Positions 16,065-28,865 of a stretch of 64,000 bases of DNA are shown here, one piece after another (the first letter of the stretch is position 1; every line of letters starts with the position of its first letter). The notes below the pieces were generated by a model, which ran no database searches, had not been told where the DNA came from, and saw only the letters and a list, made by a program, of their open reading frames with translations. The stretch is from the IMG/VR virus record IMGVR_UViG_3300045988_152007, positions 60,475-124,474 of that record; one strand, given 5' to 3'. A program made the translations under genes and the position numbers. This stretch comes from a virus.

Positions 16065-16123
16065 TTGGCAAGATGCACAAAATTTGCATGAAAAAATTGT
16101 GCAAAATGCTAAAAAATTAAAAT

Positions 16124-16152
16124 GCCGCCCGGTGTGCAGGACATCGGGCGGC
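16124..16152 (-). terminator. rho-independent terminator
   Basis: gccgcccggtgtgcaggacatcgggcggc. Confidence 0.55.
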
Positions 16153-16173
16153 TCAAATGAACCGCCCAATTTT

Positions 16174-16584
16174 TTAGGAATTTTCATCCAAACCGCAGGC
16201 AATTTCCAGAAGATTACAGATATTCAAAATATCATAAATTTCTGGCTGTTCAAAATCATCATCATCTTCCCGCCACTCCCAGCAAATGCAACCGCAGTAT
16301 TCACCATTGGCATTCAATGGATAGTAATACCAGCCATTGTCAATTCTTGATGCTTCTCTCAAATTTTTCGGAAACCAACAATTCTTTGGTTCAGTATTAT
16401 AGCTTGCAACAGGTGTGCCGTCTGCACCATAAATTGCAACCGGCATTTCATTTCTTTTGAACCAAGCAATAATAACCTTAATAAGAAATTCCATTTTACC
16501 CCTCCACCAGATTTTCCTTGATAAATTCATCATCTTCATAGAAGAACTCGCCCCATGAAAATTTACAAATCCAAAGGGCTTCAT
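16174..16584 (-). CDS. hypothetical protein (Cys/Trp-rich)
   Basis: 136-aa ORF. The true start may be the internal MEFLIK. Confidence 0.4.
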   Translation of the reverse strand: MKPFGFVNFHGASSSMKMMNLSRKIWWRGKMEFLIKVIIAWFKRNEMPVAIYGADGTPVASYNTEPKNCWFPKNLREASRIDNGWYYYPLNANGEYCGCICWEWREDDDDFEQPEIYDILNICNLLEIACGLDENS

Positions 16585-16641
16585 AATGGTCCCACTGGAC
16601 CGCTTGGGCGATGTAACCGCCCTTTCTGAACTTCTTCCCTT

Positions 16642-16917
16642 TCATTCGTTAAAATCCTTCTTTCCATCAAGAATTGCCTCAATCTCCGAAGTGGTCAGGC
16701 AGTCAATCTTTTCTTCAATCTCATGGAGAATATCTCCATCATCTCCGCAGATTTCATCGGTGATGTTCAGCCATTCATCATAGATGTGGAGCAGAACAAA
16801 ATCGCCCGACTCGATTATTGCACCACAACAACCGCAGATAATTTCATCTCTGTCCTGATTCCAGATACCCGCCTGAACAGTTCCCTCGTTATCCATGAAA
16901 ATAACCTGATAATTCAT
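16642..16917 (-). CDS. hypothetical Cys-rich protein
   Basis: 91 aa with CGCCG and CGDDG motifs. RBS AAAGGAAATGATACA-ATG. Confidence 0.45.
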   Translation of the reverse strand: MNYQVIFMDNEGTVQAGIWNQDRDEIICGCCGAIIESGDFVLLHIYDEWLNITDEICGDDGDILHEIEEKIDCLTTSEIEAILDGKKDFNE

Positions 16918-16947
16918 TGTATCATTTCCTTTCCTTTTGATAAATCA

Positions 16948-16977
16948 ATTATATCACAGGTCAAGGGGCTTTGTCAA
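16948..16977 (-). promoter_or_regulatory. sigma-A-type promoter TTGACA-18-TATAAT
   Basis: TTGACAaagccccttgacctgtgaTATAAT. Confidence 0.45.
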
Positions 16978-17384
16978 GCCCCTTGATTAAATTTCTTGCC
17001 AATTTCCTGAATATCTTCAAGTACTTCTTCATAAGACCGCCACTCGCCATAGTGGTATTCAGGGTCATAATACCACAGACCATAGTGGTCAATCAATCCC
17101 ATGACAATTTTAATGGGAACTTCATAGCCCATTTCATCAAAATAATCATTGATGAATTGTGCCCAAGCGTAAGAATGAATTTCAACAGCTCCAATTTCAT
17201 CACATTCAGGATAATCAAAACTATTGATTTCTTTACCAAGGACATTGAACATTTTTATTGGTTCGCAATTTTCAGTTTTACACAGATCTTCGTATCTGCA
17301 TTTCCATTCATGATGAATACATTCCGCTTCATCGTCGAACACCTGCCCGCAAAAGTCGCATTCATAGGTCGTAATTTCAGTCAT
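16974..17384 (-). CDS. zinc-finger protein
   Basis: Start at ATG 17384 after GGAATTGATAATC. N-terminal CDFCG...CIHHEWKC. Confidence 0.45.
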   Translation of the reverse strand: MTEITTYECDFCGQVFDDEAECIHHEWKCRYEDLCKTENCEPIKMFNVLGKEINSFDYPECDEIGAVEIHSYAWAQFINDYFDEMGYEVPIKIVMGLIDHYGLWYYDPEYHYGEWRSYEEVLEDIQEIGKKFNQGA

Positions 17385-17415
17385 GATTATCAATTCCTTT
17401 CCTTTTGGTACTATT

Positions 17416-17444
17416 ATTATATCAAATTTTTTTTAATTTGTCAA
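17416..17444 (-). promoter_or_regulatory. sigma-A-type promoter TTGACA-17-TATAAT
   Basis: TTGACAaattaaaaaaaatttgaTATAAT. Confidence 0.5.
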
Positions 17445-17493
17445 GCCGGTTGGGAATTTTTTTTTATAATTTTTTTCCCAGCCGGCTTGTTTT

Positions 17494-17724
17494 TTATTTC
17501 ATGATTGCATGAAATTCTTCTGTATGCCCGCACTTATCACAAGTGTAATAATAGTTTTTTGAACCACGCCAATTTGTAGCACTAGAAAACTGATACTGAC
17601 CATCACATTCGCAGTATCCATTGTTCCAGCGATTATGGTCTCCCTCTGCTTCTTTATACATAAGAGTCGCAACGCCAAAAGCGATAGCAAGTGCAACTAA
17701 AATAGCAACAATTTGCCGCCCCAA
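17494..17724 (-). CDS. small membrane protein with C-terminal zinc ribbon
   Basis: 76 aa. TM IVAILVALAIAFGV. CECDG...CDKCGH. Confidence 0.4.
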   Translation of the reverse strand: MGRQIVAILVALAIAFGVATLMYKEAEGDHNRWNNGYCECDGQYQFSSATNWRGSKNYYYTCDKCGHTEEFHAIMK

Positions 17725-17819
17725 GTTTCAGGGGCAAGAAAAGCAATCATTAGAGGAAATACGGCCATGACAGCCCATGCAATATAAAAACTAGGATTTG
17801 TAAGCATTTGTATCACTCC

Positions 17820-18131
17820 TTAAATATAAATAACTCTATTGCCACCAGCAGGCGGATTTGTATTATCTACTGTAATGTCAGTTTCCCCGTCCTGACCATC
17901 TTCATCTTCATACTCGACATGGAATGTCAAATCTCCAACATTATCCAGATAATCCTGAATAGCCTTAATAATTGCGGCCATGTACTTTGCTTCTTTCTCT
18001 TGGTCTAACTGGTTAATTCTTGTCTGTGCTAATGCAATCAGGGTCTGTAATTCTTCGGGCTTCATGTTGTTTATATAATTGTGCAAGTCCTGCAAATTCA
18101 TTGCTTCAACAATAGCGGATTCAAAATTCAT
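17820..18131 (-). CDS. hypothetical protein with acidic C-terminus
   Basis: 103 aa. RBS GAAAGGAATTGATATC-ATG. Confidence 0.45.
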   Translation of the reverse strand: MNFESAIVEAMNLQDLHNYINNMKPEELQTLIALAQTRINQLDQEKEAKYMAAIIKAIQDYLDNVGDLTFHVEYEDEDGQDGETDITVDNTNPPAGGNRVIYI

Positions 18132-18160
18132 GATATCAATTCCTTTCTTTTGATAAATCT

Positions 18161-18189
18161 ATTGTATCACATTAGGGGTTGTTTGTCAA
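18161..18189 (-). promoter_or_regulatory. sigma-A-type promoter TTGACA-17-TACAAT
   Basis: TTGACAaacaacccctaatgtgaTACAAT. Confidence 0.5.
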
Positions 18190-18372
18190 TCCCTTATTCT
18201 TCTAATTTTCTAATAATTGCATTGATAAGACTTAAAACGCCTTCAATAATAGCACAGATTGCAAGTGCTACGCCAACTTTAACCCCACAGAGATAGAGAA
18301 TACCTAAAATAATAATAACTAAATCCATTGTATTAACTCCTTTCTTTCATGGTAGGCTGTTAAGCCTACCAT

Positions 18373-18786
18373 TTATTTAATCATCGGGCAAGTGTTCATA
18401 CCATTGTCTTTCATCCAGCGGATAAAATCTTCTGCGGACAATTCTTCTGACAATCTCTTGAAACTCATGTCATAATTCAACGGCTGATACAATGTTTCAC
18501 GTGAAACAGGGAAACAAATTTTTTCGGGTTTGTAGTCTTCGCCTTTCCAGTATCTCATATTTTCGATATGGAATTTTTTGATTCTTCTGTCAAAAGTCCT
18601 ACGCTTGATAGAGCCATTGACATAATTGCTACAAATAGCTACCGCAAGGTCTGTTGTGTTTTTAATTGTCATTGTTTCACGGTCAGGTGGTTCGGAGCAG
18701 TAGACAAGCTGTGTTGACCAATTCAGGATAGGTTCTTGGCCGTCATTCATTTTCATGTAAATGCGTTTCCAGTACAGATTTTTCAT
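18373..18786 (-). CDS. hypothetical protein
   Basis: 137-aa ORF. Confidence 0.45.
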   Translation of the reverse strand: MKNLYWKRIYMKMNDGQEPILNWSTQLVYCSEPPDRETMTIKNTTDLAVAICSNYVNGSIKRRTFDRRIKKFHIENMRYWKGEDYKPEKICFPVSRETLYQPLNYDMSFKRLSEELSAEDFIRWMKDNGMNTCPMIK

Positions 18787-18957
18787 TGTTCATTCTCCTT
18801 TAACCAATCAATAATTTTTTCACCACATTCAATGCAGTCAATGCCTTGGATATCTTCATTATCTCGGCATTTGAACATCAGAGGACAACAAGCACAATCA
18901 TCAAATGTCTCGACCCATTGCTCAATGCAGTATTTAAGTTTTTCGTCAGAAGTCATT
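18784..18957 (-). CDS. small Cys-rich protein (57 aa)
   Basis: MTSDEKLKYCIEQWVETFDDCACCPLMFKCRDNEDIQGIDCIECGEKIIDWLKENEQ. Confidence 0.3.
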
Positions 18958-19076
18958 AGGTATTCCCTCCCTTAACCTTGTACCAATAGTATAACAGGTA
19001 TCGGGAGAAAAGTCAACTGTCATTTTGCACAAAATTTGGGGTAAAAAATTGTGCAATGTGCCAAAAATCTAAAAAT

Positions 19077-19159
19077 CCTCGCGGCTGGACCGTAGCCGCG
19101 AGGCTCAAAAAAATAACACAAGGGACTTATTTTGTTAAGCCCCTTGTGTTATTTTTTTT
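19077..19159. terminator. tandem hairpins; the second is bidirectional with T-runs on both strands
   Basis: cctcgcggctggaccgtagccgcgagg and aacacaaggg...cccttgtgtt, followed by attttttttt. Confidence 0.55.
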
Positions 19160-19607
19160 AATTCTCAATTACAGTGCCAAGGTAGCGAGCAATCATCATC
19201 ACTTCACAGCTCATGTCTTGTGAATCGCAAACTACATAGCCTACGCGGTCACCATCTGCGTCAACCGGGTAAACACCGTAAGTGGCATTGTATTCAAATG
19301 GCTCGTCTTCATCTTCCCATGTCTTCGAGACATAGGACGGAAAGTTTTCCATACCTCGCAATTTTTTATCAGTGTCATAAATTGCAATAGGACGCAAACC
19401 GGAATTTGACGCCATTTTAATAGCAATCTGCAAGGATTCTTCTGCAAATGACCCAAGCGTTGAATACTTCTGAAAACAAACACAGTTATTTTCAATAAAG
19501 ATTTCAAGTGGGTCACCCTCATGAATCCTCAAACTACGGCGAATGTCTTTCGGAATAATTACACGTCCAAGGTCATCAATTCTGCGAACAATGCCAGTTG
19601 CTTTCAT
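19158..19607 (-). CDS. AbrB/SpoVT-type (swapped-hairpin) transcriptional regulator with C-terminal extension
   Basis: N-terminus MKATGIVRRIDDLGRVIIPKDIRRSLRIHEGDPLEIFIE matches the AbrB N-domain. ATG at 19607 after AAAGGAATTGATAAAA. Confidence 0.6.
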   Translation of the reverse strand: MKATGIVRRIDDLGRVIIPKDIRRSLRIHEGDPLEIFIENNCVCFQKYSTLGSFAEESLQIAIKMASNSGLRPIAIYDTDKKLRGMENFPSYVSKTWEDEDEPFEYNATYGVYPVDADGDRVGYVVCDSQDMSCEVMMIARYLGTVIEN

Positions 19608-19637
19608 TTTTATCAATTCCTTTCTTTTGATAGCCCT

Positions 19638-19666
19638 ATTATATCACAATAGGGCTATTTTGTCAA
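19638..19666 (-). promoter_or_regulatory. sigma-A-type promoter TTGACA-17-TGnTATAAT
   Basis: TTGACAaaatagccctattgtgaTATAAT. Confidence 0.5.
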
Positions 19667-20727
19667 GCGTTTTTATTAAAATGTTCAGAAAGATAATTAG
19701 CGTATATTGCTTGGAACTGGAAGCCCAATTCATCAGTTTCCCAATCAACACGATTATTGAAACGTGTCAGATACTGGATGATTTTTCCATCATTATTTAC
19801 TTCGCAAGTGATGTAGGGTTTTTCCGGTTCAGCCTTGTGCCGAATAAAAACAATGTGTGTTTCACGCTTCAATACCTTTGGATAATAGGCACGATAAACA
19901 CAGTTTGACTGATAGTCGGCCTCTGCTTCAAATTCTTTTGCTACCGTTGGCACAAGTACAATAAAATTATTATCTTCAAATGCAAGGTTTGCATTTAACT
20001 GATAGTCTCTGCTTCCTGCTTCAAGAGCAAGGCGTTTTTCCATTTCCATCTGACAAATGGCTAAAAACATATCTTTGTATGTTCTTTCTTTGCCCAATTC
20101 GTTGCAGAGTGTGATATATCTTTCAATGTATTTACTCATAGCATAGAAGCCTTCAAGCAGTTCCCAACATTCATGTTCCATTCGGAACAAAATTTTATCT
20201 GCGTCTTTCAGAATAATTTCATGTACTGCGGGCTTCACATTATTCATCATTCTTAAAATCTGCGGATTGACATTTGAATAACGTACTGCCCGAACAGCAA
20301 CTTCAATTTCATTCCGGCACAGATTTTCAAACTGGCGTTCTTCCAGTGATGCAAGACCTAATTTCAGATATTTAACGCCTTGCTTATCAAGAACATAATG
20401 ATTATAGCTACAGAAATAAGCAATTACACCAAGGATACGCAAATTATATTCTTTGCCGAAGATGCTATAAACAGTTTCTACCATTTCAGTAGACCATTTA
20501 TTAGCATCACTAAAATAAGAGTCATAATCTTTATTTCTTACTACAAAATATCTTGCAAGAAAATTATTATCGGCGTATTCTTTGAGAATCCTTTTTGCTT
20601 CTGGACAAAAATCCTTAACCTTTTTGCCGGTCATACCATAGATACAGCCGTCAGAGAAGTTGAAGCAGGTTGTCTTGCCATTTTCAAGAGTGATGATAAA
20701 CAAGTTCTTATTCTTTTCAATAGTCAT
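19663..20727 (-). CDS. hypothetical protein (354 aa, largest early ORF of unknown function)
   Basis: Long uninterrupted ORF. Its own promoter at 20770-20800 is a copy of the 16036-16064 cassette. Confidence 0.5.
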   Translation of the reverse strand: MTIEKNKNLFIITLENGKTTCFNFSDGCIYGMTGKKVKDFCPEAKRILKEYADNNFLARYFVVRNKDYDSYFSDANKWSTEMVETVYSIFGKEYNLRILGVIAYFCSYNHYVLDKQGVKYLKLGLASLEERQFENLCRNEIEVAVRAVRYSNVNPQILRMMNNVKPAVHEIILKDADKILFRMEHECWELLEGFYAMSKYIERYITLCNELGKERTYKDMFLAICQMEMEKRLALEAGSRDYQLNANLAFEDNNFIVLVPTVAKEFEAEADYQSNCVYRAYYPKVLKRETHIVFIRHKAEPEKPYITCEVNNDGKIIQYLTRFNNRVDWETDELGFQFQAIYANYLSEHFNKNA

Positions 20728-20878
20728 TAGGCTTACCTCTTTCTTATTTTATCTAAACATTTAATTATTATTTCCCTTTGACATTATAGAGTATATCATG
20801 TTTTAGGATTTTTGTCTACTGGCAGAATGCACAAATTTTAGGACAAAAAATTGGTGAAAATGCTGAAAATCTAAAATG

Positions 20879-20905
20879 CCTGCCGCGGCGTTGGTTCGCG
20901 GCAGG
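20879..20905 (-). terminator. rho-independent terminator (ccgcggcgttggNtcgcgg family)
   Basis: cctgccgcggcgttggttcgcggcagg. Confidence 0.5.
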
Positions 20906-20987
20906 CTCAAATGAAAATGTAAATTATTTCCAATAGACAATTAAGAAAAGGGGAATCCAAAATCTGGATTCCCAATTTTTTCAATTC

Positions 20988-21221
20988 TTAAAAAATTTCA
21001 TTTCCTGCCGAAGTATGGACTGTCGCAATGTCATAGCCGCTTTCGCCGATTGTTTCCAGTGCTTTGTCAACTTCTTCCTCGAATTCATCAATGTTATCAT
21101 CGTGATAATCATCCAATTCTTCACAAGTAGGTTCATTGGCCCATCTTTCCATCTTTTTCCACTTATCATCAATTTCTACTATGACAGGAACGCACTTCGT
21201 AATATAAGCTACAACTTTCAT
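20988..21221 (-). CDS. hypothetical acidic protein
   Basis: 77-aa ORF. Confidence 0.4.
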   Translation of the reverse strand: MKVVAYITKCVPVIVEIDDKWKKMERWANEPTCEELDDYHDDNIDEFEEEVDKALETIGESGYDIATVHTSAGNEIF

Positions 21222-21300
21222 TTTTTACCAATCCTTTCAGCCCAAGGCAATCAAAATTTTAATATCTGTTGCTTCTTCAAGTAAAATATCAAGCTGTTCG

Positions 21301-21633
21301 TCATTCATTTGTCGTTTCTTCCTTTTTTACCCAATTGATAATTTTTGTATAAGATTGCAGTCCAAACATCAATTTCTTCATATCCAGAATAAAAAGGTCA
21401 GCATCTCGTTCTGTGCGAAACTCTAATGCATTATTATAATATAATCCTCTTTTATCAACACCTGAATACTTAACAATAATATTTTTAGGAATCATCATTT
21501 TTGTTTCTCCCCTCAAATTTCCAATCAATAGTCTTGATAATTCGGTTAACATCCATTCTATTTTTAATTTTGCCAATAAAGCGGTTAGCTTCTTCTTCTG
21601 TGTCAAAAAGCAGTTCCTCAAAATAGGACACAT
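21301..21633 (-). CDS. hypothetical protein
   Basis: 110-aa ORF. Confidence 0.4.
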   Translation of the reverse strand: MCPILRNCFLTQKKKLTALLAKLKIEWMLTELSRLLIGNLRGETKMMIPKNIIVKYSGVDKRGLYYNNALEFRTERDADLFILDMKKLMFGLQSYTKIINWVKKEETTNE

Positions 21634-21668
21634 TCCAACAATTTACACCAGCATAATAAACTATAATT

Positions 21669-21881
21669 TTAGTCTCCATCATCGTCTCCCCAAATAGCAA
21701 CAGCTAAGGTATAACAATCATAACGTAAATCAGATTGTATCTTGAATAACTTATCGCTCAATTCTTCTGCTTGTGTAAAATCATAAGGATTTGAGATATC
21801 CTTTCTGCTAAGGTACACTTTTCCAGACAATTTTTCAATCTTATTTGCCAAGTCTGTAAGTTCTTTAAGAATATCATTCAT
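21669..21881 (-). CDS. hypothetical protein
   Basis: 70-aa ORF. Confidence 0.4.
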   Translation of the reverse strand: MNDILKELTDLANKIEKLSGKVYLSRKDISNPYDFTQAEELSDKLFKIQSDLRYDCYTLAVAIWGDDDGD

Positions 21882-21905
21882 TTCATTTTCCCCCTATGGG
21901 CTGGA

Positions 21906-22379
21906 TTATTCCAGTCCATTCAAAATTTCTTTCAGCACATCAAGGATGTTTGTGGTCGTGGGGTCGATTGCTCCGCCCAAGTCCCAATCTCTGCGGACTC
22001 TTGCATCATCATCAAAAATCAGGGCTTCTTCATCATCAGCAAGTCTTGCGGCTTCAATCTTATGCTTCGGCGTCCCATAGGCTACACATCGCAAACTGTC
22101 AAATGGAAAACCATATTCTTTCAGCCAAGCTCTCTTTGCTTTTCTGACTTCATCATCATACTGCTTGTTCGGCTCTTTTGACAGCCAAGTGATAACCGCA
22201 ACATTGATACCGCAATTCTGCAAGCTACGGAGTAGACAGGCAAGTTCTGCCATATCAACCAGCGGTTCGGCGGTCTGATAAGGTGTAGGGTCATAGGCTC
22301 GAATCTTATCAAGCCAATCTTCAACCCCATAGAGGTCAACCAGAGTTCCATCAAGATCGAAGCACAATTCCTTAATCAT
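21906..22379 (-). CDS. HAD-superfamily hydrolase, 5'(3')-deoxyribonucleotidase-like
   Basis: Motif I FDLDGTLVD and motif IV LIFDDD. RBS GAGAAAGGAAATGATAAA-ATG. Promoter at 22413..22441. Confidence 0.55.
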   Translation of the reverse strand: MIKELCFDLDGTLVDLYGVEDWLDKIRAYDPTPYQTAEPLVDMAELACLLRSLQNCGINVAVITWLSKEPNKQYDDEVRKAKRAWLKEYGFPFDSLRCVAYGTPKHKIEAARLADDEEALIFDDDARVRRDWDLGGAIDPTTTNILDVLKEILNGLE

Positions 22380-22412
22380 TTTATCATTTCCTTTCTCTTT
22401 TGGAGTATCTTT

Positions 22413-22441
22413 ATTATATCAGATACAAGCGGATTTGTCAA
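22413..22441 (-). promoter_or_regulatory. sigma-A-type promoter TTGACA-17-TATAAT
   Basis: TTGACAaatccgcttgtatctgaTATAAT. Confidence 0.5.
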
Positions 22442-22450
22442 GTGTTTTTT

Positions 22451-22843
22451 TCAAACTAATTTGATATTTTTATAGTTTTCAATAGCCCAAGCACTTGCGA
22501 ATGGCATAATTGACATATCTTTTACACCATTATTTACACTGATTTGGATATTTTTCCCATGGGCATAAGCATACCCGATTTCCCAAGCTGTTCCAGAATC
22601 AGAGTATAGACCATCATATACAGCAAATAGAATATCACATTCTTGAATTGCGGCAACATCCATTTTGAAAACTTCCCTTGCCCAATCTTCCTGCGACATA
22701 TCCCAAGCATTCGGGACAGTATGTTCTTGCGGAACAAATACATCATACCCAAGCCGCCGGAAACCTGCCGCATATGAATCAATTCTTGATTTTGTCTCAG
22801 GGCGGAAGAACGCTCCAGCCATGTAAATTTTCATTTTTATCAT
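22451..22843 (-). CDS. nucleoside 2-deoxyribosyltransferase (NDT)-like protein
   Basis: KIYMAGAFFRPE ... DSGTAWEIGYAYAHGK matches the NDT family. Start moved to ATG 22843 (AAAGGAAAGGAA-ATG), 22 nt downstream of the promoter -10. Confidence 0.6.
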   Translation of the reverse strand: MIKMKIYMAGAFFRPETKSRIDSYAAGFRRLGYDVFVPQEHTVPNAWDMSQEDWAREVFKMDVAAIQECDILFAVYDGLYSDSGTAWEIGYAYAHGKNIQISVNNGVKDMSIMPFASAWAIENYKNIKLV

Positions 22844-22864
22844 TTCCTTTCCTTTTGTATCCTT

Positions 22865-22893
22865 ATTATAGCACAGGGCATACCAGAAGTCAA
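22865..22893 (-). promoter_or_regulatory. sigma-A-type promoter TTGACT-17-TATAAT
   Basis: TTGACTtctggtatgccctgtgcTATAAT. Confidence 0.5.
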
Positions 22894-23001
22894 GCATAAA
22901 ATATTCGTCAAATTACACAAACATTTTGGGAAAATTTTCCAAGGGCTGGGCTGGAAGGATTTGGAAAACTTTTTTACGTTAGCACTTTAACTCGCGAAAT
23001 T

Positions 23002-23028
23002 CCAGCCGCGGCGTTGGATCGCGGCTGG
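23002..23028 (-). terminator. rho-independent terminator (same hairpin family)
   Basis: ccagccgcggcgttggatcgcggctgg. Confidence 0.5.
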
Positions 23029-23211
23029 CTCAAATTCCCCTTCCAAATTATGGGATTGCCAAATTTGCCGCATTTGATTTTTTGACTGGAAAATTATAGA
23101 ATTGAAACAGAAATAAAAATTATTTTTTTTATATAAAAATTATATTATTTTTTTTTATAATTTTCAAAATAGAATTTCCTCCCAAGATATGGGAGGAAAT
23201 TCAAATGGAAA

Positions 23212-23424
23212 TTAGAATTTATCATGCGGAATTTCGGGATAGTCAAGAATTTTTGCAACAAATTCATCGTACTTATCCACCAGCATACAATCTTTTCCAC
23301 AGTGTTTTTGAATATAATGTTCAGCTTCCGAACGACACGAAGCTTCTACAAAAAACAATCGCGGCCAGTCTTTTGTAGGGAGGAAGTTAATTACCAGATA
23401 CTTCCAGGTTTTATATCCTTCCAT
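23212..23424 (-). CDS. hypothetical protein
   Basis: 70-aa ORF. Confidence 0.4.
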   Translation of the reverse strand: MEGYKTWKYLVINFLPTKDWPRLFFVEASCRSEAEHYIQKHCGKDCMLVDKYDEFVAKILDYPEIPHDKF

Positions 23425-23430
23425 TTTTTA

Positions 23431-23658
23431 TCACTCCTTAACATATAATGTAGCATCTACGGCGTAGACTTTTGTATCCTCAGCAAAACAATCAAGTTCT
23501 CCAGTAGATAAATCAATCGAATTGATTTCATCACCGTCATTATCTACGCATTCAGTTTTTATATAAACTGTATCATAGGATGGACATTTGAATACAGTTC
23601 CAATATCCAGAGCTGCGAAGTGGATAACCTGTCTGGGCTTTTCATACTCGATTTTCAT
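23431..23658 (-). CDS. hypothetical protein
   Basis: 75-aa ORF. Confidence 0.4.
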   Translation of the reverse strand: MKIEYEKPRQVIHFAALDIGTVFKCPSYDTVYIKTECVDNDGDEINSIDLSTGELDCFAEDTKVYAVDATLYVKE

Positions 23659-23660
23659 TT

Positions 23661-23984
23661 TTATTTTTCCTTTCTATGTTTGATTAGCTTTTTCGCCATG
23701 TTCTTTTGAATTGCGTCATATACTACTTTCGGCATTTTCATCTGCCCGTTTCGTCTGAAAATTGCAGTTGCTTTGTCCATGTTGACATAATACAAAGTGA
23801 TTAGAAATTCCATCCGGCTATCTGTAATCAAAATCACTCCCGTGCTTGTAATAATCTGCCATTTGTCCTCATATTTGAATTTTGCCACAGGTTCGCCAAG
23901 TCCGGTGTTCATTTGAATTTCAACATATCTGTCCAAGCGGTCTTCCTTGAAATGTTTACTGACTTGCAATTTTGTAATATCCAT
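23661..23984 (-). CDS. hypothetical protein
   Basis: 107 aa. RBS AAGGAGGAAATTAAG-ATG, preceded by a GC stem-loop. Confidence 0.4.
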   Translation of the reverse strand: MDITKLQVSKHFKEDRLDRYVEIQMNTGLGEPVAKFKYEDKWQIITSTGVILITDSRMEFLITLYYVNMDKATAIFRRNGQMKMPKVVYDAIQKNMAKKLIKHRKEK

Positions 23985-24005
23985 CTTAATTTCCTCCTTT
24001 TGGAA

Positions 24006-24023
24006 GAGGGCTTTTTAGCCCTC
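24006..24023 (-). repeat. conserved GC stem-loop GAGGGCTTTTtAGCCCTC immediately 5' of an RBS
   Basis: Related copies at 25585..25604 and 26337..26358. Each sits just upstream of CCAATAGAAAGGA / AAGGAGG and an ATG. Confidence 0.4.
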
Positions 24024-24224
24024 GTTCCTATCATCTTCAATCCAACGGTTCAGAAACTGTTCGCAAGATTCATCCGGATTATCATTAACCGCTTTCTCAC
24101 AAGCCTTTTGGAAAGGACAGGCTTCACAAGAAGGAAGGTGTTTAATAAGTTCAATCAGCATATCCTTATCAAGGACGTTATTTACAAATTCAGACATTTT
24201 CATTTTCATTTCCCCCTTAATCAA
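24015..24224 (-). CDS. hypothetical Cys-containing protein
   Basis: 69-aa ORF. Confidence 0.4.
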   Translation of the reverse strand: MIKGEMKMKMSEFVNNVLDKDMLIELIKHLPSCEACPFQKACEKAVNDNPDESCEQFLNRWIEDDRNEG

Positions 24225-24357
24225 TATAAGTAGACATTAGACAAACCCATTCACGGCTGTTATACTTCGGGCTTCTCTCCCTAGCGTCTGCTAGGGAGTA
24301 GCCATATGCAGTTTCAATTTTTTTTGTGTTGACATTGTACATCTCGAACTCATACAT
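24217..24357 (-). CDS. small hypothetical protein (46 aa)
   Basis: ATG after GAGGAGGG. MYEFEMYNVNTKK... Confidence 0.35.
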   Translation of the reverse strand: MYEFEMYNVNTKKIETAYGYSLADARERSPKYNSREWVCLMSTYID

Positions 24358-24361
24358 GATG

Positions 24362-24544
24362 TTAGCCCTCCTCATCCTCGATGCAACCGCAGACTGTGTA
24401 CCACAGACCCATATACTCGTCATAATTGCGGGCATATGTGTTGCAGAAATCGTTCATAGATTCAGCACTAAAATCATGGTCATTATCAATCCATTCGTTC
24501 AGCAGTTCAGCGATTTTTTCAGTAGTCATTTTTTGTATCTCCAT
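24362..24544 (-). CDS. small hypothetical protein (about 60 aa)
   Basis: MEIQKMTTEKIAELLNEW... The ORF-track N-terminus overlaps the promoter -10 and was trimmed. Confidence 0.35.
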   Translation of the reverse strand: MEIQKMTTEKIAELLNEWIDNDHDFSAESMNDFCNTYARNYDEYMGLWYTVCGCIEDEEG

Positions 24545-24918
24545 TTCATTTTTATCTGTTCCCTTGGAACAATTATATATTACCACACCCTATAGCAAAT
24601 GTCAATAGGAAAGTCAAATTTTTTTATTCGTCAATATGCACAAAGATTCTGGAAATATTTGGTATGGAATTATATACCATAAGCTGGTAGGATATGGGAA
24701 ATGGAATGTAATGTCAAATATGGTAGAATTTGGCTGGAAATATTCGGAATTGATATTAAATGGAAAATGCGGGGCGTGGCGAGCTTGCTGTGGATATATC
24801 AATTTCGCCACGCCCCGGCGAGGCAATTTATTTAATTAAAGTGATAATGAATTAAAGAAGATGATTTGAAAAATGGGCTGGAAACTGTTTCCAATTTCCA
24901 GCCCTTGGAATTTCAGGA

Positions 24919-25236
24919 TCAAACTGCCATATGAGCCAGATTCTGCCATTCATAAATCTTATTTACGCCCATTTCATTTGCAATTTCTCTTGCCTGCCGT
25001 CTGGTGTAGGCGTGTTCAGTGGTGCTGACGTAATATTTTCCATTTTTGAATTGAATACTGCAATTTCCAATCATTCGGTTCAGGGTTCTGGCAATTTCCA
25101 TTGCCTTTTCGGGCTGTTCGCATTCATATGTTGCGATATTCACCTGAAAACCGCCCTTGTACTTTTTGATTTTTCCGTTCTTGATGTTCAGGGTATCGCC
25201 ATCCTGCATTTTCCGAATAGTTCTCACGTTAATCAT
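24919..25236 (-). CDS. small protein, paralog pair member
   Basis: MINVRTIRKMQDGDTLNIKNGKIKKYKGGFQV resembles the N-terminus of 25259..25576. Confidence 0.45.
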   Translation of the reverse strand: MINVRTIRKMQDGDTLNIKNGKIKKYKGGFQVNIATYECEQPEKAMEIARTLNRMIGNCSIQFKNGKYYVSTTEHAYTRRQAREIANEMGVNKIYEWQNLAHMAV

Positions 25237-25258
25237 TTTTTATTTCTCCTCTCAAATA

Positions 25259-25576
25259 TTAAATGTAAAGGCAGGCAGGATTTCCACGCCATCTGTAAAT
25301 TGAAAGCTGATTACATTTCCTGCCAATTTCAACTGCCTCGCGTTTTGTGGACACTCGTTTAGAAATGTCAATGTAGTATCTGCCATTTTCAAGCCAAATG
25401 CCGCATGTGCCTTTGAACTCTCGAACCGCCTGTATTGCCATTTCAGGACTGATGACCTCGACGCCATTAGTAGCTACCTGATAGCCACTCTTGTACCTCT
25501 TGATTTTTCCATTTTTAAGTGTTAGGCCATCGCCGTCAGCCAGTTTCTTGATTGTGCGAATGTTAATCATATCAGA
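25259..25576 (-). CDS. small protein, paralog pair member
   Basis: MINIRTIKKLADGDGLTLKNGKIKRYKSGYQV. The ORF-track N-terminal extension was trimmed to the MINIR start, which has an upstream RBS. Confidence 0.45.
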   Translation of the reverse strand, partial: SDMINIRTIKKLADGDGLTLKNGKIKRYKSGYQVATNGVEVISPEMAIQAVREFKGTCGIWLENGRYYIDISKRVSTKREAVEIGRKCNQLSIYRWRGNPACLYI

Positions 25577-25604
25577 TATTTCCTTTCTATTGGTGGAGGG
25601 CTTT

Positions 25605-25790
25605 TCAGCCCTCCGGTTTATTTTCTTCGTACAGCAGCTCGCCGCGGCTGTATCTCTGGTAGTGGATCTCAAGTAAATCCAAATGGTATTCATAGTAGTC
25701 GGCGTCAATAGGGTCATCGAACGCCTCCTCTATAATCTCCTGAGTATGGTCATTGAACATTTTAATGACTTCGCTATGTTGATTTTTCAT
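25605..25790 (-). CDS. hypothetical acidic protein
   Basis: 61-aa ORF. Confidence 0.4.
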   Translation of the reverse strand: MKNQHSEVIKMFNDHTQEIIEEAFDDPIDADYYEYHLDLLEIHYQRYSRGELLYEENKPEG

Positions 25791-26012
25791 TTTAATCCTC
25801 CATCATCACGAAGAAATTCCAACTACTGTATTCAGGTCTGCCGCCAGCAGGATTATTATGGCGGACCACCTGACAAAATGAAACAGAAATCCAGAGCATA
25901 ATAATTATGCCAGATAATGTTAACGCGAGTTTGAGATTTTTCATTTTGAAATTTTCCTTTCGACTTTTGGATTCATGTGCTCGGTTGAATTGTCAGAAAG
26001 CGGTAGAGGGAC

Positions 26013-26312
26013 TCAAATGTCCCTCACCACTAACGTCAGGTGGTCGGCTGTATGCTCGATTGCCTGTATAATCTGATAGCTTGTGAAATGGTAGGTAGTT
26101 AGCAGACCAGAAGTAAATACCGCAGACCGACTGCCAAACCCTACGATTTCCAGTTCCTGCATGATGTAGAGCTTTTCTTCAAGTTCGCGGTAGAAGGCAG
26201 GCTGCCAAGGGCAGTTGAATGTGCTGGATAATTGCCATTTGCAATAATCAGTTTGAACATTGTTCTTATCAAGAAAACGGATCTCGGCATAGGGATTTCG
26301 TGCAGTTGCCAT
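26013..26312 (-). CDS. hypothetical protein
   Basis: 99 aa. Preceded by a GC stem-loop and CCAATAGAAAGGA RBS. Confidence 0.4.
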   Translation of the reverse strand: MATARNPYAEIRFLDKNNVQTDYCKWQLSSTFNCPWQPAFYRELEEKLYIMQELEIVGFGSRSAVFTSGLLTTYHFTSYQIIQAIEHTADHLTLVVRDI

Positions 26313-26346
26313 ATTGTACCATCCTTTCTATTGGAAGCCAAGGGTT

Positions 26347-26568
26347 TTAACCCTTGGCTCTGTAGGTTTCTTTGCCTTTCTCGAATGTGCTCATGACTTC
26401 ACCAGTCTGCATATCAATGACATCTCTGTCATTCTTTGCCCATATGCTGTAAGCGTGAGCCATACAACGTGCTGCGGTCAGGTTATGGTAGATGGTGCTA
26501 TACTGGCCAGTTGTGTGATTATAGATAGAATACATAATGTTATCCCCTTTCTGTGGTTGGTTGGGCAA
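26347..26568 (-). CDS. hypothetical protein
   Basis: 73-aa ORF. Confidence 0.4.
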   Translation of the reverse strand: MPNQPQKGDNIMYSIYNHTTGQYSTIYHNLTAARCMAHAYSIWAKNDRDVIDMQTGEVMSTFEKGKETYRAKG

Positions 26569-26904
26569 TTAGCCCAACCAAATTTGCTTACTTGTTGCGA
26601 TAGACCAGCGACGCCGACTTGCTGCCAGCCGCTCGACTTCCCACTTGACCCATTCAGAGCAACCGCCTTCGTCCATATCAGCGAAAATATGCTCTACTTC
26701 TTTATGGTCGCTCTTCATAGAGTATTCGGTATAGCTTGCTTCGGCGATCTGCTCAGCGATATAGTCTTTCTGGCCCATCAGCTTATGAAAGGTGGCCTTG
26801 CCATTAGGGTCAGAGAAATTGACCTTGCCCATGGCATTGTTAATGCGGATGATGGTGTTCTGCATAGCTTCCTTACGGATAGCTCTTCTATTGGTTCTGG
26901 TCAT
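26569..26904 (-). CDS. hypothetical protein
   Basis: 111-aa ORF. Confidence 0.4.
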   Translation of the reverse strand: MTRTNRRAIRKEAMQNTIIRINNAMGKVNFSDPNGKATFHKLMGQKDYIAEQIAEASYTEYSMKSDHKEVEHIFADMDEGGCSEWVKWEVERLAASRRRWSIATSKQIWLG

Positions 26905-26960
26905 AATAATTATACCTCCATATATTGTCAGTTGGTTGGTTGGTGGATGGGTGAAGAAGC

Positions 26961-27365
26961 TTATGCTTCTTCACCGTATAGTAAGTCGTGCAGTTTGTAG
27001 AAGAAGTCCTCAAGCATATGCTCGAAGATATCCGCCCATTCTTCGGCCTCGTCTTGTAAGTCTGTTAGTTTTTCATACGCGGCCTCATATGCGACACATG
27101 GGTTGCCGGCTTCCATATCCATATTATAGTCGGTATGTTCCAAGTCATACTCAGCACTATGAATAGCCCATGTAAGATTATCCCATTGCTGAATATTCTT
27201 CGCCGCATACTCATGATACTTGTCCAGCATACCATCATAGTCGAAGCTATTGCCTTGCATATGGTACTGTTTGACATACTTCACGATATCGTCAGCTTGT
27301 TCTGCTAATTCCTCTTTGATTGCTTTCTGTTTGTCCTGTTCACTAGTTTTAATTGCATATACCAT
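26961..27365 (-). CDS. highly acidic protein (D/E-rich)
   Basis: 134 aa with long acidic stretches. First gene behind the 27626-27654 promoter and a long leader. Confidence 0.45.
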   Translation of the reverse strand: MVYAIKTSEQDKQKAIKEELAEQADDIVKYVKQYHMQGNSFDYDGMLDKYHEYAAKNIQQWDNLTWAIHSAEYDLEHTDYNMDMEAGNPCVAYEAAYEKLTDLQDEAEEWADIFEHMLEDFFYKLHDLLYGEEA

Positions 27366-27618
27366 GATTTTACCAATCCTTTACATATTATTTGACTGTT
27401 AGTTGTCACCTATCCGTGTTACTATCTGCCGTAGGCGTTGGATTGCCCTACCGCTTGCACCGCACTTTCCATGTTCTACCATCGCGTCCGCTATGCGGTG
27501 CAGACGCTCGGCTTAGATTCACTTTTCAAGGTTCAACGCCGTTCGGTGCTTCGGCCTCTTTCCGGTCATTCTACTACATTTGCAAGGGCTTGCGTTGTTT
27601 GTGTTCCCTTGCTTTCGT
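27366..27618 (-). ncRNA. long GC-rich structured 5' leader or ncRNA candidate
   Basis: No credible ORF on either strand. Nested inverted repeats include gcaccgca/tgcggtgc and gccgtagg/cctaccgc. Lies between promoter TTGACA-17-TACAAT (27654..27626) and the gene start at 27365. Confidence 0.25.
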
Positions 27619-27625
27619 TGTACTC

Positions 27626-27654
27626 ATTGTACCATAGGACTTCCGACTTGTCAA
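27626..27654 (-). promoter_or_regulatory. promoter TTGACA-17-TACAAT driving the structured leader
   Basis: tgtcaa at 27649-54 and attgta at 27626-31 on the + strand. Confidence 0.4.
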
Positions 27655-27817
27655 GGACTTTTTTCAAAATTTCTTGAATTTTTTTCGCTTGGCGTTTTGC
27701 CTTGCTTGCGTTGTCCCGTGGTCAATTTCTGATTATAGAATAGCACCTATGCACGGAATTGTCAAGTATTTTTTTTCAAAAATCGAAATATTTTTTTTGG
27801 GGGTTAGTCGTATCTAA

Positions 27818-27877
27818 CTCACTTCACTCAAGTAAAGTAAGACAATAGACTTTAACACTTTAGTCAAGTGAAGTGGG
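27818..27877. repeat. long imperfect hairpin flanked by G-runs
   Basis: ctcacttcactcaagtaaagt ... actttagtcaagtgaagtg, flanked by ggggg and ggggggg. Confidence 0.4.
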
Positions 27878-27942
27878 GGGGCAGTGTTTCGTGAAAAACT
27901 TTTTCAATTTAATGTAATAAAGTCTTTCCTGGCAAAATAATT

Positions 27943-28040
27943 TCTAAACTCAATTTCAATTTCAAAAAACGGGACAATAATCTAAACTCATTTTCAATTT
28001 CGGAAAACGATAATCATTTCAATTTTGGAAAACAATTTTT
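27943..28040. repeat. three tandem direct repeats of about 30 bp (TCTAAACTCAtTTTCAATTTCggAAAACG)
   Basis: tctaaactcaatttcaatttcaaaaaacg / tctaaactcattttcaatttcggaaaacg / atcatttcaattttggaaaac. Confidence 0.45.
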
Positions 28041-28053
28041 ATAAAAAAAAATA

Positions 28054-28075
28054 AGCGGGAAAATATTTTCCCGCT
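28054..28075 (-). terminator. terminator of the leftward early operon
   Basis: agcgggaaaatattttcccgct, with a T9 run on the minus strand. Confidence 0.5.
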
Positions 28076-28108
28076 TTAATTTTATTCCTTAATTACTCGA
28101 TACCCATT

Positions 28109-28309
28109 CTATTCTAACGTTTCTTTTGCAAGAGCTACGGCATCACTGGCTTCAGGACATTCAATACATAAAAAAGTTTTACCATCTACTTCGTCAATAT
28201 AAAATTCATAATTATGACCATTTACCATATGCAATTCTTCACGAAGTTTAGAGGGAATCATTAAACGTCCAACTGTATCGAGTTTTCTTGTATAAGCTGT
28301 TTTCAGCAT
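28109..28309 (-). CDS. AbrB/MazE-type swapped-hairpin DNA-binding protein
   Basis: 66 aa. RKLDTVGRLMIPSKLREEL. Confidence 0.5.
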   Translation of the reverse strand: MLKTAYTRKLDTVGRLMIPSKLREELHMVNGHNYEFYIDEVDGKTFLCIECPEASDAVALAKETLE

Positions 28310-28427
28310 TCAACTCACTCCTTTCTTTTTAATTGGGAGAGTGCGAGCCATCCCAGAAATTTCATAACTTATTTTATAAAATTTTTTGTGTTTTGTCAAA
28401 ATTTTCTTAACGAAATCTTAACATAAA

Positions 28428-28865
28428 TTAATCAAAAGGAATAATGCCTTCATTAGGGTCAATTACTCCTCGCTCTTGATGGAACCGATAATTAGTATAT
28501 CCATTTTTAAACTTATAAACTTCTACTTCAGGTATAATATATTGGTCTTCCTTATCTACAATTTTAGAACCAAGAGTAATACCGATTGGATCACCTTCTT
28601 CTTCATATTTAGATAAATCAATAGACATTAAATCTTTTTTATTTTTAATGACATGGACTATTCCAGGTCCAATATATTTTTCTTCTAGCCCTTTATTATA
28701 TTCAATATATTTTTTATCGCTTTTAAAATTCATAAAATCTTCAAGGGCTTTAGTATAGTCTTTATAGATTTTTGCTTCAATAATTTTACCATAAATAAAT
28801 CTGGCCGCACATCCTAAACCAAATGCCGCCCCAGTACCTAAAAGAAGCCCATGGACAAACTTCAT
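28428..28865 (-). CDS. putative lipoprotein (signal peptide with lipobox-like LGC)
   Basis: MKFVHGLLLGTGAAFGLGCAARF. 145 aa. Second gene of the leftward early operon. Confidence 0.5.
   Translation of the reverse strand: MKFVHGLLLGTGAAFGLGCAARFIYGKIIEAKIYKDYTKALEDFMNFKSDKKYIEYNKGLEEKYIGPGIVHVIKNKKDLMSIDLSKYEEEGDPIGITLGSKIVDKEDQYIIPEVEVYKFKNGYTNYRFHQERGVIDPNEGIIPFD

What the first reader, a model, noticed from the sequence alone, without database searches (positions are those of the whole stretch)
21906..22843. Adjacent 5'-deoxyribonucleotidase (HAD) and nucleoside 2-deoxyribosyltransferase-like genes: a base-swapping nucleotide module
The HAD hydrolase has the DxDGT signature and the LIFDDD motif of dNMP 5'-nucleotidases. 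Its neighbour carries the NDT hallmarks (KIYMAGAFF ... DSGTAWEIGYAYAHGK). Each has its own strong promoter. Together they could convert dNMPs to deoxynucleosides and exchange the base. That chemistry is used in salvage and in pathways that install non-canonical bases. The module may relate to DNA modification (anti-restriction) or to nucleotide pool remodelling.
Basis: partly seen in the sequence, partly recalled or inferred. Interest (0 to 1): 0.55.

Follow-up and report, generated by a model that had tools for sequence, protein, structure and literature searches.

The report
Two early phage nucleotide-pool enzymes
Two neighbouring early genes of a large gut phage that reads TAG as an amino acid encode a deoxyribosyltransferase-family enzyme and a small nucleotide phosphatase; both are real but are ordinary, separately inherited accessory genes, not a dedicated DNA-modification module.

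Summary
On the minus strand, 22451-22834 encodes a 127-aa nucleoside 2-deoxyribosyltransferase (NDT) family protein, and 21906-22379 encodes a 157-aa HAD phosphatase. Each has its own near-consensus sigma-A promoter.

The NDT call is solid: Pfam PF05014 E=3.8e-22, and the model matches Bacillus psychrosaccharolyticus NDT at TM 0.83. It keeps the Tyr/Asp/Glu triad, the transferase-type Pro and the 5'-OH-binding Asp. It differs in an invariant Ser where NDTs have Asn, and in a C-terminus about 15 residues shorter.

The "dNMP 5'-nucleotidase" label for the HAD is only marginally favoured. Its family falls equally between NT5C deoxyribonucleotidases and the polynucleotide kinase 3'-phosphatase domain.

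The pair is not a conserved module:
- Only 7 of 80 HAD loci have an NDT gene within 10 kb.
- 26 of 80 NDT loci have the HAD within 6 kb, in variable order and spacing.
- One contig, otherwise 98.6-100% identical across the aligned 20 kb, lacks the NDT cassette.

Nothing else in the window points to base modification, and GATC, CATG and GCGC are strongly avoided.

Most likely these are independent early nucleotide-pool and salvage enzymes that may cooperate where both are present. They are new members of known kinds, of low to moderate interest.

The parts
22451..22834 (-). Residues present: Tyr4, Asp59, Glu85 (nucleophile), Pro35, Asp79, Ser108.
   Evidence: PF05014 E=3.8e-22. Profile against the PDB: 6evs 5.6e-26. 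AF2 pLDDT 93.3. Foldseek against 6evs: TM 0.83. Invariant columns.
22865..22893 (-). Sigma-A-type promoter of the NDT gene: TTGACT-17-TATAAT with extended -10 TG.
   Evidence: It lies inside the 148-aa ORF, which excludes the 22897 start.
21906..22379 (-). Minimal-cap HAD phosphatase, 157 aa. Motif I is D8xD10; motif II is T64. Motif III is K105; motif IV is D123-D124. Cap residues Y17, W22, P33 and Y34 are invariant.
   Evidence: (AF2 pLDDT 95.7).
22413..22441 (-). Sigma-A-type promoter of the HAD gene: TTGACA-17-TATAAT with TG (12/12 matches).
22380..22392 (-). Shared ribosome-binding leader AGGAAATGATAAA. An identical copy lies at 22836-22848 before the NDT gene.
   Evidence: 5 matches with at most 1 mismatch against 0.54 expected.

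Best explanation
These are two independently transcribed early genes in the standard-code early arm of a phage whose late genes read TAG as sense. Related contigs reach about 190 kb, and the phage is siphovirus-like, probably infecting gut Clostridia or another Bacillota host.

Shown:
- Gene 1 belongs to the nucleoside 2-deoxyribosyltransferase family. It has the full catalytic apparatus and the residues that fit a 5'-OH (nucleoside) substrate rather than a 5'-phosphate one.
- Gene 2 is a catalytically intact, minimal-cap HAD phosphomonoesterase. It belongs to a phage-specific family that sits between NT5C 5'(3')-deoxyribonucleotidases and the Pnkp 3'-phosphatase domain.
- Both genes sit behind near-consensus host-type promoters.

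Inferred:
- The HAD dephosphorylates deoxynucleoside monophosphates early in infection, as T5 Dmp does.
- Where the optional NDT cassette is present, it exchanges or removes the base on the resulting deoxynucleosides. Host deoxynucleoside kinases could then recapture them.
- The net effect would be to reshape the deoxynucleotide pool for an A+T-rich genome.

The two enzymes can cooperate, but they are not an obligate unit and are not a DNA-hypermodification pathway.
For: NDT family membership:
- Pfam, PHROGs 7995 and 1817, and PDB sequence and profile hits led by the experimentally characterised BpNDT 6evs.
- The model's best structural matches are all transferases; DNPH1 comes much lower.
- Tyr, Asp, Glu and Pro35 are conserved across the family. 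The +6 position after Tyr is Phe, as in NDTs, not the Arg of Rcl. The position six residues before the Glu is Asp. Per PMC12884076, Asp/Asn at these sites bind the 5'-OH in NDTs, and Pro marks transferases.

HAD phosphatase:
- All four HAD motifs are invariant.
- phrog_2643 (5'-3' deoxyribonucleotidase) gives 6e-7, against 3e-4 for the PNK family.
- Distant relatives carry PF06941.
- The motif I extension DGT[IL][AV]D[LF]xG resembles NT5C's DGVLADFxG. This last point rests on my own knowledge.

Early expression: plus the absence of in-frame TAG in either gene.

Independence of the two genes.

Salvage context for phage NDTs: in Enterococcus phage VPE25 the NDT lies beside a deoxyguanosine kinase and a PnuC-like transporter.

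Precedent for an early dNMP phosphatase: T5 Dmp (bioRxiv 10.64898/2026.04.02.716235).
Against: - No enzyme activity is known for either family.
- The HAD is as close to Pnkp phosphatase domains as to NT5C.
- The NDT has Ser instead of the 5'-OH-binding Asn123 of L. leichmannii NDT. DNPH1 also has Ser there.
- The NDT has about 15 fewer C-terminal residues than characterised NDTs. In those enzymes the terminal carboxylate of the neighbouring subunit contacts the base (PMC4270796). Transferase activity is therefore not assured.
- No deoxynucleoside kinase was found in the window.
- Only about a third of the genome was available.
Confidence: 0.5

Rival explanations
1. The HAD is a polynucleotide 3'-phosphatase, a stand-alone version of the T4 Pnkp phosphatase domain. 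It would heal nucleic-acid ends. Its partner could be the RNA ligase at 5574-6944 (tRNA/RNA repair against host ribonucleases). Or it could be the conserved DEDDh exonuclease-like gene at 13803-14660 (DNA end processing). On this reading it is functionally unrelated to the NDT gene.
For: - 17 of 25 family members hit Pfam PF25109 HAD_PNKP, with a best E-value of 1.8e-5.
- The best PDB profile alignment is full-length to T4 Pnkp phosphatase 5uj0, though E=0.1.
- Several BFVD hits are kinase-phosphatases.
- An RNA ligase (PF09414 plus an OB domain) is encoded in the same early arm.
- An exonuclease-like gene lies about 2.3 kb from the HAD in 67 of 80 loci.
Against: - No P-loop kinase is present in the window.
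- None of the 80 HAD loci had the RNA ligase within 10 kb.
- The family is acidic, with a median net charge of -6.
- The invariant aromatic mini-cap (Y17, W22, Y34) suits a small nucleotide substrate better than a polymer end.
- PHROG and the top structural hits slightly favour the deoxyribonucleotidase assignment.
Confidence: 0.2
2. The pair, or the NDT gene alone, belongs to a pathway that excludes a canonical base or installs a non-canonical one in phage DNA. DmtZ (dAMP hydrolase and deoxyribose-5-phosphate transferase) in Z-genome phages and the PF06941 dTMP phosphatase in dU-DNA phage PBS1 work this way.
For: - Both enzyme families have experimentally shown roles of this kind in other phages (PMC12884076; bioRxiv 10.1101/2025.10.22.683976; PMC12697855).
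- Both genes are expressed early, before replication.
Against: - The NDT cassette is absent from a contig that is otherwise 98.6-100% identical across the aligned 20 kb. A genome-wide base replacement should not be dispensable.
- 91% of HAD loci have no NDT nearby. Phage phAss-1 has the HAD, but no NDT hit was found in it.
- No PurZ-, DatZ-, Dcd- or TS-like partner was seen in the genes scanned.
- The NDT keeps the 5'-OH-type Asp, unlike DmtZ (PMC12884076).
- GATC, CATG and GCGC are 2-4-fold under-represented (z from -6.8 to -8.9). That is expected for DNA exposed to restriction.
Confidence: 0.1
3. The NDT-like protein is mainly a hydrolase, either a deoxynucleoside or a deoxynucleotide N-glycosidase. 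It would destroy particular host or defence-derived nucleosides or nucleotides rather than swap bases. With the phosphatase it would form a catabolic or detoxifying route.
For: - An invariant Ser occupies the position where transferases have Asn and DNPH1/Rcl have Ser.
- The C-terminal tail is shortened in this lineage.
- Two NDTs from phage contigs predicted to be unmodified showed no transglycosylation in vitro (bioRxiv 10.1101/2025.10.22.683976).
- In a related lineage the 5'-OH-binding Asp is replaced by Thr, and an HD phosphohydrolase lies between the HAD and the NDT.
Against: - The transferase-type Pro and the Asp six residues before the Glu are conserved.
- All the best sequence and structure matches are transferases. 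DNPH1 scores E=0.1-0.5 by profile and TM about 0.6.
Confidence: 0.15

Closest known systems
Bacterial type II nucleoside 2-deoxyribosyltransferases (Bacillus psychrosaccharolyticus NDT, PDB 6evs; also Desulfotalea, Chroococcidiopsis and Lactobacillus NDT/PDT)
   Same: - Same fold: TM 0.83 and 35% identity to 6evs.
- Same Tyr/Asp/Glu triad, transferase Pro, Phe-Phe after the Gly-rich loop, and Asp six residues before the Glu.
   Different: - Ser replaces the Asn of the N-L-M motif.
- The C-terminus is about 15 residues shorter.
- The Gln46-equivalent base-binding position is not conserved.
- The gene is phage-encoded and early-expressed.
- Activity is untested.
DmtZ of PurZ0 Z-genome phages (NDT-superfamily dAMP hydrolase and deoxyribose-5-phosphate transferase; PMC12884076)
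   Same: - Phage-encoded NDT-superfamily enzyme acting on the deoxynucleotide pool.
- The Pro and the Glu nucleophile are retained.
   Different: - DmtZ lacks the Asp/Asn 5'-OH binders and takes dNMPs. Its closest solved structures are DNPH1/Rcl.
- The window protein keeps the Asp, and its closest structures are nucleoside transferases.
- No PurZ or DutZ context was seen.
NT5C-type 5'(3')-deoxyribonucleotidases, including PBS1 Dtm (PF06941; PMC12697855) and PHROG 2643
   Same: - HAD core with DxDGT, T, K and DD motifs.
- Small size.
- PHROG 2643 hit at 6e-7.
- Distant relatives carry PF06941.
   Different: - The window protein itself does not reach the Pfam threshold for PF06941.
- Its cap insert is shorter.
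- It has equal affinity to HAD_PNKP.
- tblastn found no similarity to cultured-phage NT5C genes at E<=1e-3.
T4 polynucleotide kinase 3'-phosphatase domain (PF25109; PDB 1ltq, 5uj0)
   Same: - Minimal-cap HAD of about 145-157 aa.
- Collinear motifs over the full length.
   Different: - There is no fused or neighbouring kinase.
- The sequence match is not significant (E=0.1).
T5 Dmp, pre-early 5'-deoxynucleoside monophosphatase (bioRxiv 10.64898/2026.04.02.716235)
   Same: - This is a functional analogy: a non-essential, very early dNMP phosphatase that reshapes pools after host DNA breakdown.
   Different: - No sequence relationship was tested or claimed.
- The role here is inferred, not shown.

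Membership tests
Nucleoside 2-deoxyribosyltransferase family (PF05014) | Significant match to the family profile above the curated threshold | tested here: met
   79 bits against a cut-off of 28.8, E=3.8e-22.
Nucleoside 2-deoxyribosyltransferase family (PF05014) | Catalytic Glu nucleophile with the Tyr and Asp of the triad | tested here: met
   Tyr4, Asp59 and Glu85 (127-aa numbering). Glu and Asp are invariant and Tyr is at least 90% conserved in 25 homologues. They align to the catalytic residues of 6evs and CtNDT.
Nucleoside 2-deoxyribosyltransferase family (PF05014) | Flavodoxin-like NDT fold | tested here: met
   AF2 pLDDT 93.3. Foldseek hits to NDT/PDT structures with E from 4e-9 to 1e-5.
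NDT transferases proper (nucleoside substrates) | Asp and Asn that bind the 5'-OH (Asp92 and Asn123 in L. leichmannii numbering) | tested here: inconclusive
   The Asp is present (Asp79). The Asn is replaced by an invariant Ser (S-x-M) as in DNPH1, whereas BpNDT has N-L-M.
NDT transferases proper (nucleoside substrates) | Water-excluding Pro conserved in transferases (PMC12884076) | tested here: met
   Pro35 is invariant.
NDT transferases proper (nucleoside substrates) | C-terminal carboxylate of the neighbouring subunit reaching the base-binding site (PMC4270796) | tested here: inconclusive
   There are 19 residues after the S-x-M motif, against about 34-35 in LlNDT and BpNDT. No oligomer model was made.
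NDT transferases proper (nucleoside substrates) | Transglycosylation activity between a deoxynucleoside and a free base | not testable with these tools
   Needs an enzyme assay.
DNPH1/Rcl-type dNMP N-glycosidases | Ser/Ser and Arg phosphate-binding residues in place of Asp/Asn/Phe | tested here: not met
   Only one of the three is present (the Ser). Asp79 and Phe10 are NDT-like. Profile E-values to DNPH1 are 0.1-0.5.
HAD superfamily phosphatases | Motifs I-IV (DxD, T/S, K, DD) on a Rossmannoid core | tested here: met
NT5C 5'(3')-deoxyribonucleotidases (PF06941) | Match to the family profile above threshold | tested here: not met
   No PF06941 hit for the window protein at E<=1. Nine of 25 relatives hit it weakly, with a best E-value of 6.4e-6.
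NT5C 5'(3')-deoxyribonucleotidases (PF06941) | Closest structural neighbours are deoxyribonucleotidases | tested here: inconclusive
Pnkp 3'-phosphatase domain (PF25109) | Match to the family profile; association with a 5'-kinase | tested here: inconclusive
   Seventeen of 25 relatives hit weakly, with a best E-value of 1.8e-5. The window protein itself does not. No P-loop kinase is present in the window.
Conserved two-gene 'base-swapping module' | Conserved co-occurrence and adjacency across relatives | tested here: not met
   - 7 of 80 HAD loci have an NDT.
- 26 of 80 NDT loci have the HAD, at distances from 74 bp to 4.5 kb on either side.
- The NDT cassette is present or absent between contigs that are otherwise 98.6-100% identical over the aligned 20 kb.

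The most novel reading that the evidence does not exclude
The widespread phage HAD family is a previously unrecognised class of early dNMP phosphatase. In the lineages that carry the short-tailed, Ser-containing NDT variant, the two enzymes would form a phosphatase-transglycosylase shunt. The shunt would convert host-derived G/C deoxynucleotides into A/T deoxynucleosides, or install or remove an unusual base. That would give TAG-recoded gut phages a pool-rewriting step before the switch of genetic code.
Probability: 0.12. Interest if true: 0.6.

Novelty: new member of a known kind. Interest (0 to 1): 0.3.

Why it matters
If the inferred roles hold, they add an early nucleotide-pool step to a large and almost uncharacterised clade of stop-codon-recoded gut phages. 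The HAD family would be a widespread early phosphatase in that clade, with at least 200 relatives in IMG/VR. Phage NDT-family enzymes have only recently been shown to matter for DNA composition, in Z-genome phages. A short, Ser-bearing variant would therefore be a reasonable candidate for biochemical testing and possibly for biocatalysis. As it stands, the finding is a correct annotation of two accessory genes rather than a new system.

Tried and rejected
- Megablast of 21000-24000 against cultured and deposited phages found nothing.
- NCBIfam had no model for the NDT-like protein and gave only sub-threshold HAD-IIIA/IIIC hits for the HAD.
- A single-sequence PDB search with the HAD gave only a spurious reductase hit.
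- I looked for a conserved HAD+NDT operon in 160 viral loci and rejected it.
- I looked for an HD phosphohydrolase like the one lying between the HAD and the NDT in a related lineage. There is none in the window.
- I looked for a P-loop kinase that would support an RNA-repair triad. There is none.
- PADLOC gave only a weak TIR-like (ThsB) hit at E=8e-4 for the NDT fold. I do not take this as evidence of a defence or counter-defence role.
- Rfam and ARAGORN found no RNA genes in the window.
- The paper on designed phosphodeoxyribosyltransferases (PMC3585086) was not available. The F13R/D92S/N123S logic therefore rests on my own knowledge plus PMC12884076.

Full report
**What is there**

On the minus strand, 21906-22379 encodes a 157-aa protein that begins MIKELCFDLDGT. 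The stretch 22451-22897 is an open frame whose conserved part begins MKIYMAGAFF.

Each gene is preceded by a near-perfect sigma-70/sigma-A promoter with an extended -10 TG. These lie at 22441..22413 (12/12 matches) and 22893..22865 (11/12). The second promoter lies inside the long ORF, so translation must start downstream of it.

Both genes share the identical leader AGGAAATGATAAA before the start codon. In the HAD, the ATG inside this leader is out of frame. Most NDT homologues are 127 aa.

**Genomic setting**

The window is not ordinary standard-code DNA.
- Under the standard code, the plus strand from about 29 kb onward is broken into fragments.
- With TAG read as sense, it becomes a continuous series of long genes. 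These include a 3107-aa ORF with 108 in-frame TAGs and two ORFs of about 1100 aa.
- The minus-strand arm from about 12 to 29 kb, which holds both target genes, is almost free of in-frame TAG. It has higher G+C (0.38-0.43 against 0.27-0.32). It carries twelve near-consensus host-type promoters.

Relatives place the phage.
- The HAD has a 42%-identical homologue in phage phAss-1, and the capsid-like 378-aa protein a 49%-identical one. NCBI files phAss-1 under the "Caudoviricetes code 15 clade".
- The paper describing phAss-1 reports a tape measure protein of about 3150 aa and suggests Clostridia hosts (PMC10607447).
- Contigs carrying near-identical proteins reach 188-195 kb.

Both target genes are therefore early genes, readable by the unmodified host translation system.

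**The NDT-like gene**

Family membership is secure.
- Pfam PF05014 gives E=3.8e-22 and PF15891 gives 2e-11.
- PHROGs 7995 and 1817, both annotated as nucleoside deoxyribosyltransferase, match it.
- The best solved relative is the Bacillus psychrosaccharolyticus NDT 6evs, at 1e-15 with the single sequence and 5.6e-26 with a profile of 25 homologues.
- The AlphaFold model is confident (pLDDT 93.3).
- Its closest solved structures are all transferases: 6evs (TM 0.83, 35% identity), then the Desulfotalea, Lactobacillus PDT/NDT and Chroococcidiopsis enzymes. DNPH1 hydrolases score far lower.

The family alignment shows the following.
- The Glu nucleophile and the triad Asp are invariant, and the Tyr is at least 90% conserved.
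- The Pro described as conserved in all transferases (PMC12884076) is invariant.
- The Asp six residues before the Glu, equivalent to the 5'-OH-binding Asp92 of the L. leichmannii enzyme, is kept in most members.
- The aromatic residue at +6 from the Tyr is Phe, not the phosphate-binding Arg of Rcl. This comparison rests on my own knowledge of the Rcl and LlNDT sequences.

These features favour a deoxynucleoside substrate over a deoxynucleotide one.

Two features depart from characterised NDTs.
- The Asn of the N-L-M motif (present in 6evs) is an invariant Ser, as in DNPH1.
- This lineage ends 19 residues after that motif, against about 34-35 in LlNDT and BpNDT. In NDT/PDT the terminal carboxylate of the neighbouring subunit contacts the base (PMC4270796).

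Transferase activity is therefore likely but not assured.

**The HAD gene**

All four HAD motifs are invariant across 25 homologues. So is a set of aromatic and proline residues in a short insert after motif I: Y17, W22, P33, Y34 and P39. The model is very confident (pLDDT 95.7).

The specific label "dNMP 5'-nucleotidase" is not established.
- The window protein matches only generic HAD models, all below threshold.
- PHROGs prefer the 5'-3' deoxyribonucleotidase family (6e-7) over polynucleotide kinase (3e-4).
- Some distant relatives carry PF06941.
- Yet 17 of 25 family members weakly hit PF25109, the Pnkp phosphatase domain, against 9 of 25 for NT5C.
- The only full-length PDB profile alignment is to the T4 Pnkp phosphatase, and it is not significant (E=0.1).
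- The viral structure library puts an NT5C-type nucleotidase first, then mixes in kinase-phosphatases.

My reading is that this is a catalytically competent, minimal-cap nucleotide phosphomonoesterase. It is slightly more likely to act on free dNMPs than on polynucleotide 3' ends.

**Is it a module?**

No. I fetched 80 viral loci centred on HAD homologues (37-97% identity).
- Only 7 had an NDT homologue within 10 kb.
- 67 had a DEDDh-exonuclease-like gene about 2.3 kb away, the counterpart of window 13803-14660.

In 80 loci centred on NDT homologues:
- 26 had the HAD within 6 kb, always on the same strand. It could lie on either side, at 74 bp to 4.5 kb.
- Close spacing of about 500 bp or less is confined to the window's own lineage and one other locus.

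Three metagenomic contigs with identical HAD genes differ by a clean indel of about 790 bp. Two carry the NDT cassette and one lacks it, and the flanking sequence is 98.6-100% identical. The junctions fall in a repeated promoter-like sequence. Phage phAss-1 has the HAD, but no NDT hit was found in it.

The HAD is therefore a widespread, syntenically anchored early gene, and the NDT is a mobile optional cassette in the same early arm. Both are under purifying selection among close relatives (dN/dS 0.07 and 0.13, from few pairs).

**Mechanism**

The best-supported account has three steps.
1. The HAD dephosphorylates deoxynucleoside monophosphates early in infection. This is functionally analogous to T5 Dmp, a dispensable pre-early dNMP phosphatase that improves virulence by adjusting pools (bioRxiv 10.64898/2026.04.02.716235).
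2. Where present, the NDT acts on deoxynucleosides to exchange, or possibly remove, bases.
3. Host kinases recapture the products.

A salvage role for phage NDTs fits Enterococcus phage VPE25. There, an NDT homologue sits next to a deoxyguanosine kinase, a PnuC-like transporter and a LOG-family gene. Every step beyond "these are the enzyme families, and they are expressed early" is inference.

**Rivals**

- *End-healing.* The HAD may be an end-healing 3'-phosphatase working with the RNA ligase at 5574-6944 or with the exonuclease. However, there is no kinase in the window, and no co-localisation with the ligase was seen in other loci.
- *DNA modification.* This reading has real precedents: DmtZ, the NDT-M2 enzyme from a contig predicted to carry dZ, and the PF06941 dTMP phosphatase of PBS1 (PMC12884076; bioRxiv 10.1101/2025.10.22.683976; PMC12697855). 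Three things weaken it. The NDT is dispensable. No partner genes were seen in the regions scanned. GATC (62 observed against 182 expected), CATG and GCGC are strongly avoided, which is what one expects of DNA exposed to restriction.
- *Hydrolase or detoxification.* This role for the NDT remains possible because of the Ser and the short tail.
- *Defence or counter-defence.* PADLOC gave nothing significant.

**Novelty and verdict**

Both enzyme kinds are already recognised in phage genomes: PHROG families exist, and many Enterococcus, Lactobacillus and Lactococcus phages are annotated with NDTs. What is new is modest. These are members of those families in a stop-codon-recoded gut phage clade. 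The NDT is a short, Ser-bearing variant. The HAD belongs to a large uncharacterised family that sits between NT5C and Pnkp phosphatases.

Noticed in passing
window 28977-64000 (+), also 9470-10940 (+): Late and structural genes are readable only if TAG is sense (code 15). Examples are a 3107-aa tape-measure-like ORF at 46306-55629 with 108 in-frame TAGs, and ORFs of 1098 and 1142 aa. The capsid-like 37819-38955 and its neighbour 38999-39622 have no TAG at all. No tRNA, suppressor or otherwise, was found in the window.
   Followed up: partly
window 12000-28000 versus the rest: The standard-code early arm has clearly higher G+C (0.38-0.43) than the TAG-recoded late arm (0.27-0.32). GC skew flips sign at about 29 kb, where the two divergent arms meet.
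   Followed up: no
window 13677-29114 (-): There is an array of twelve near-consensus TTGACA-17-TATAAT promoters, most with an extended -10 TG, roughly one per early gene or gene pair. Several early genes also share the leader AGGAA(A/T)TGATAAA, which produces spurious 'MIKMK' N-termini in ORF calls, for example at 19616 and 22843.
   Followed up: partly
window 5574-6944 (-): A 456-aa RNA ligase (PF09414 with an N-terminal PHA02142 OB domain). It is 42-43% identical to RNA ligases of large Bacillus phages (PBC2, Thrax, Kirov) and related to those of many mycobacteriophages.
   Followed up: partly
window 13803-14660 (-): A 285-aa protein with no Pfam hit but visible DEDDh exonuclease motifs: LDCET, NSMFD and H-x4-D. 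Its homologues lie about 2.3 kb from the HAD in 67 of 80 related viral loci, making it the most conserved neighbour.
   Followed up: partly
window 10290-10940 (+) and 11899-12519 (-): Two homing-endonuclease-like genes: a GIY-YIG with 10 in-frame TAGs, and an HNH/NUMOD4 with 4 in-frame TAGs on the otherwise TAG-free strand. No group I intron was detected by Rfam.
   Followed up: no
window 19158-19616 (-) and 19663-20727 (-): An AbrB/SpoVT (MazE_antitoxin-fold) DNA-binding protein and a 354-aa PcfJ-like protein (PF14284, 9e-17) lie just downstream of the pair. AbrB-like genes recur in 23-24 of the 80 related loci.
   Followed up: no
L002 8201-8992 versus L003 (related contigs): The NDT cassette is gained or lost between contigs that are otherwise 98.6-100% identical over the aligned 20 kb. 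The junctions fall in a repeated promoter-like sequence (...TTGACAAAATCAACCC...). This suggests that early-gene cassettes are shuffled by recombination between repeated promoters.
   Followed up: partly
whole window: The palindromes GATC (62 against 182 expected), CATG (102 against 203), GCGC (21 against 82) and CTAG (56 against 154) are strongly under-represented.
   Followed up: no
L005, L006, L008 (related lineage): In a divergent lineage the HAD homologue, an HD-domain phosphohydrolase and an NDT homologue lie within about 2.5 kb of each other. In that NDT the 5'-OH-binding Asp is replaced by Thr (STAGSNWE). This may be a nucleotide-acting variant of the pair.
   Followed up: no
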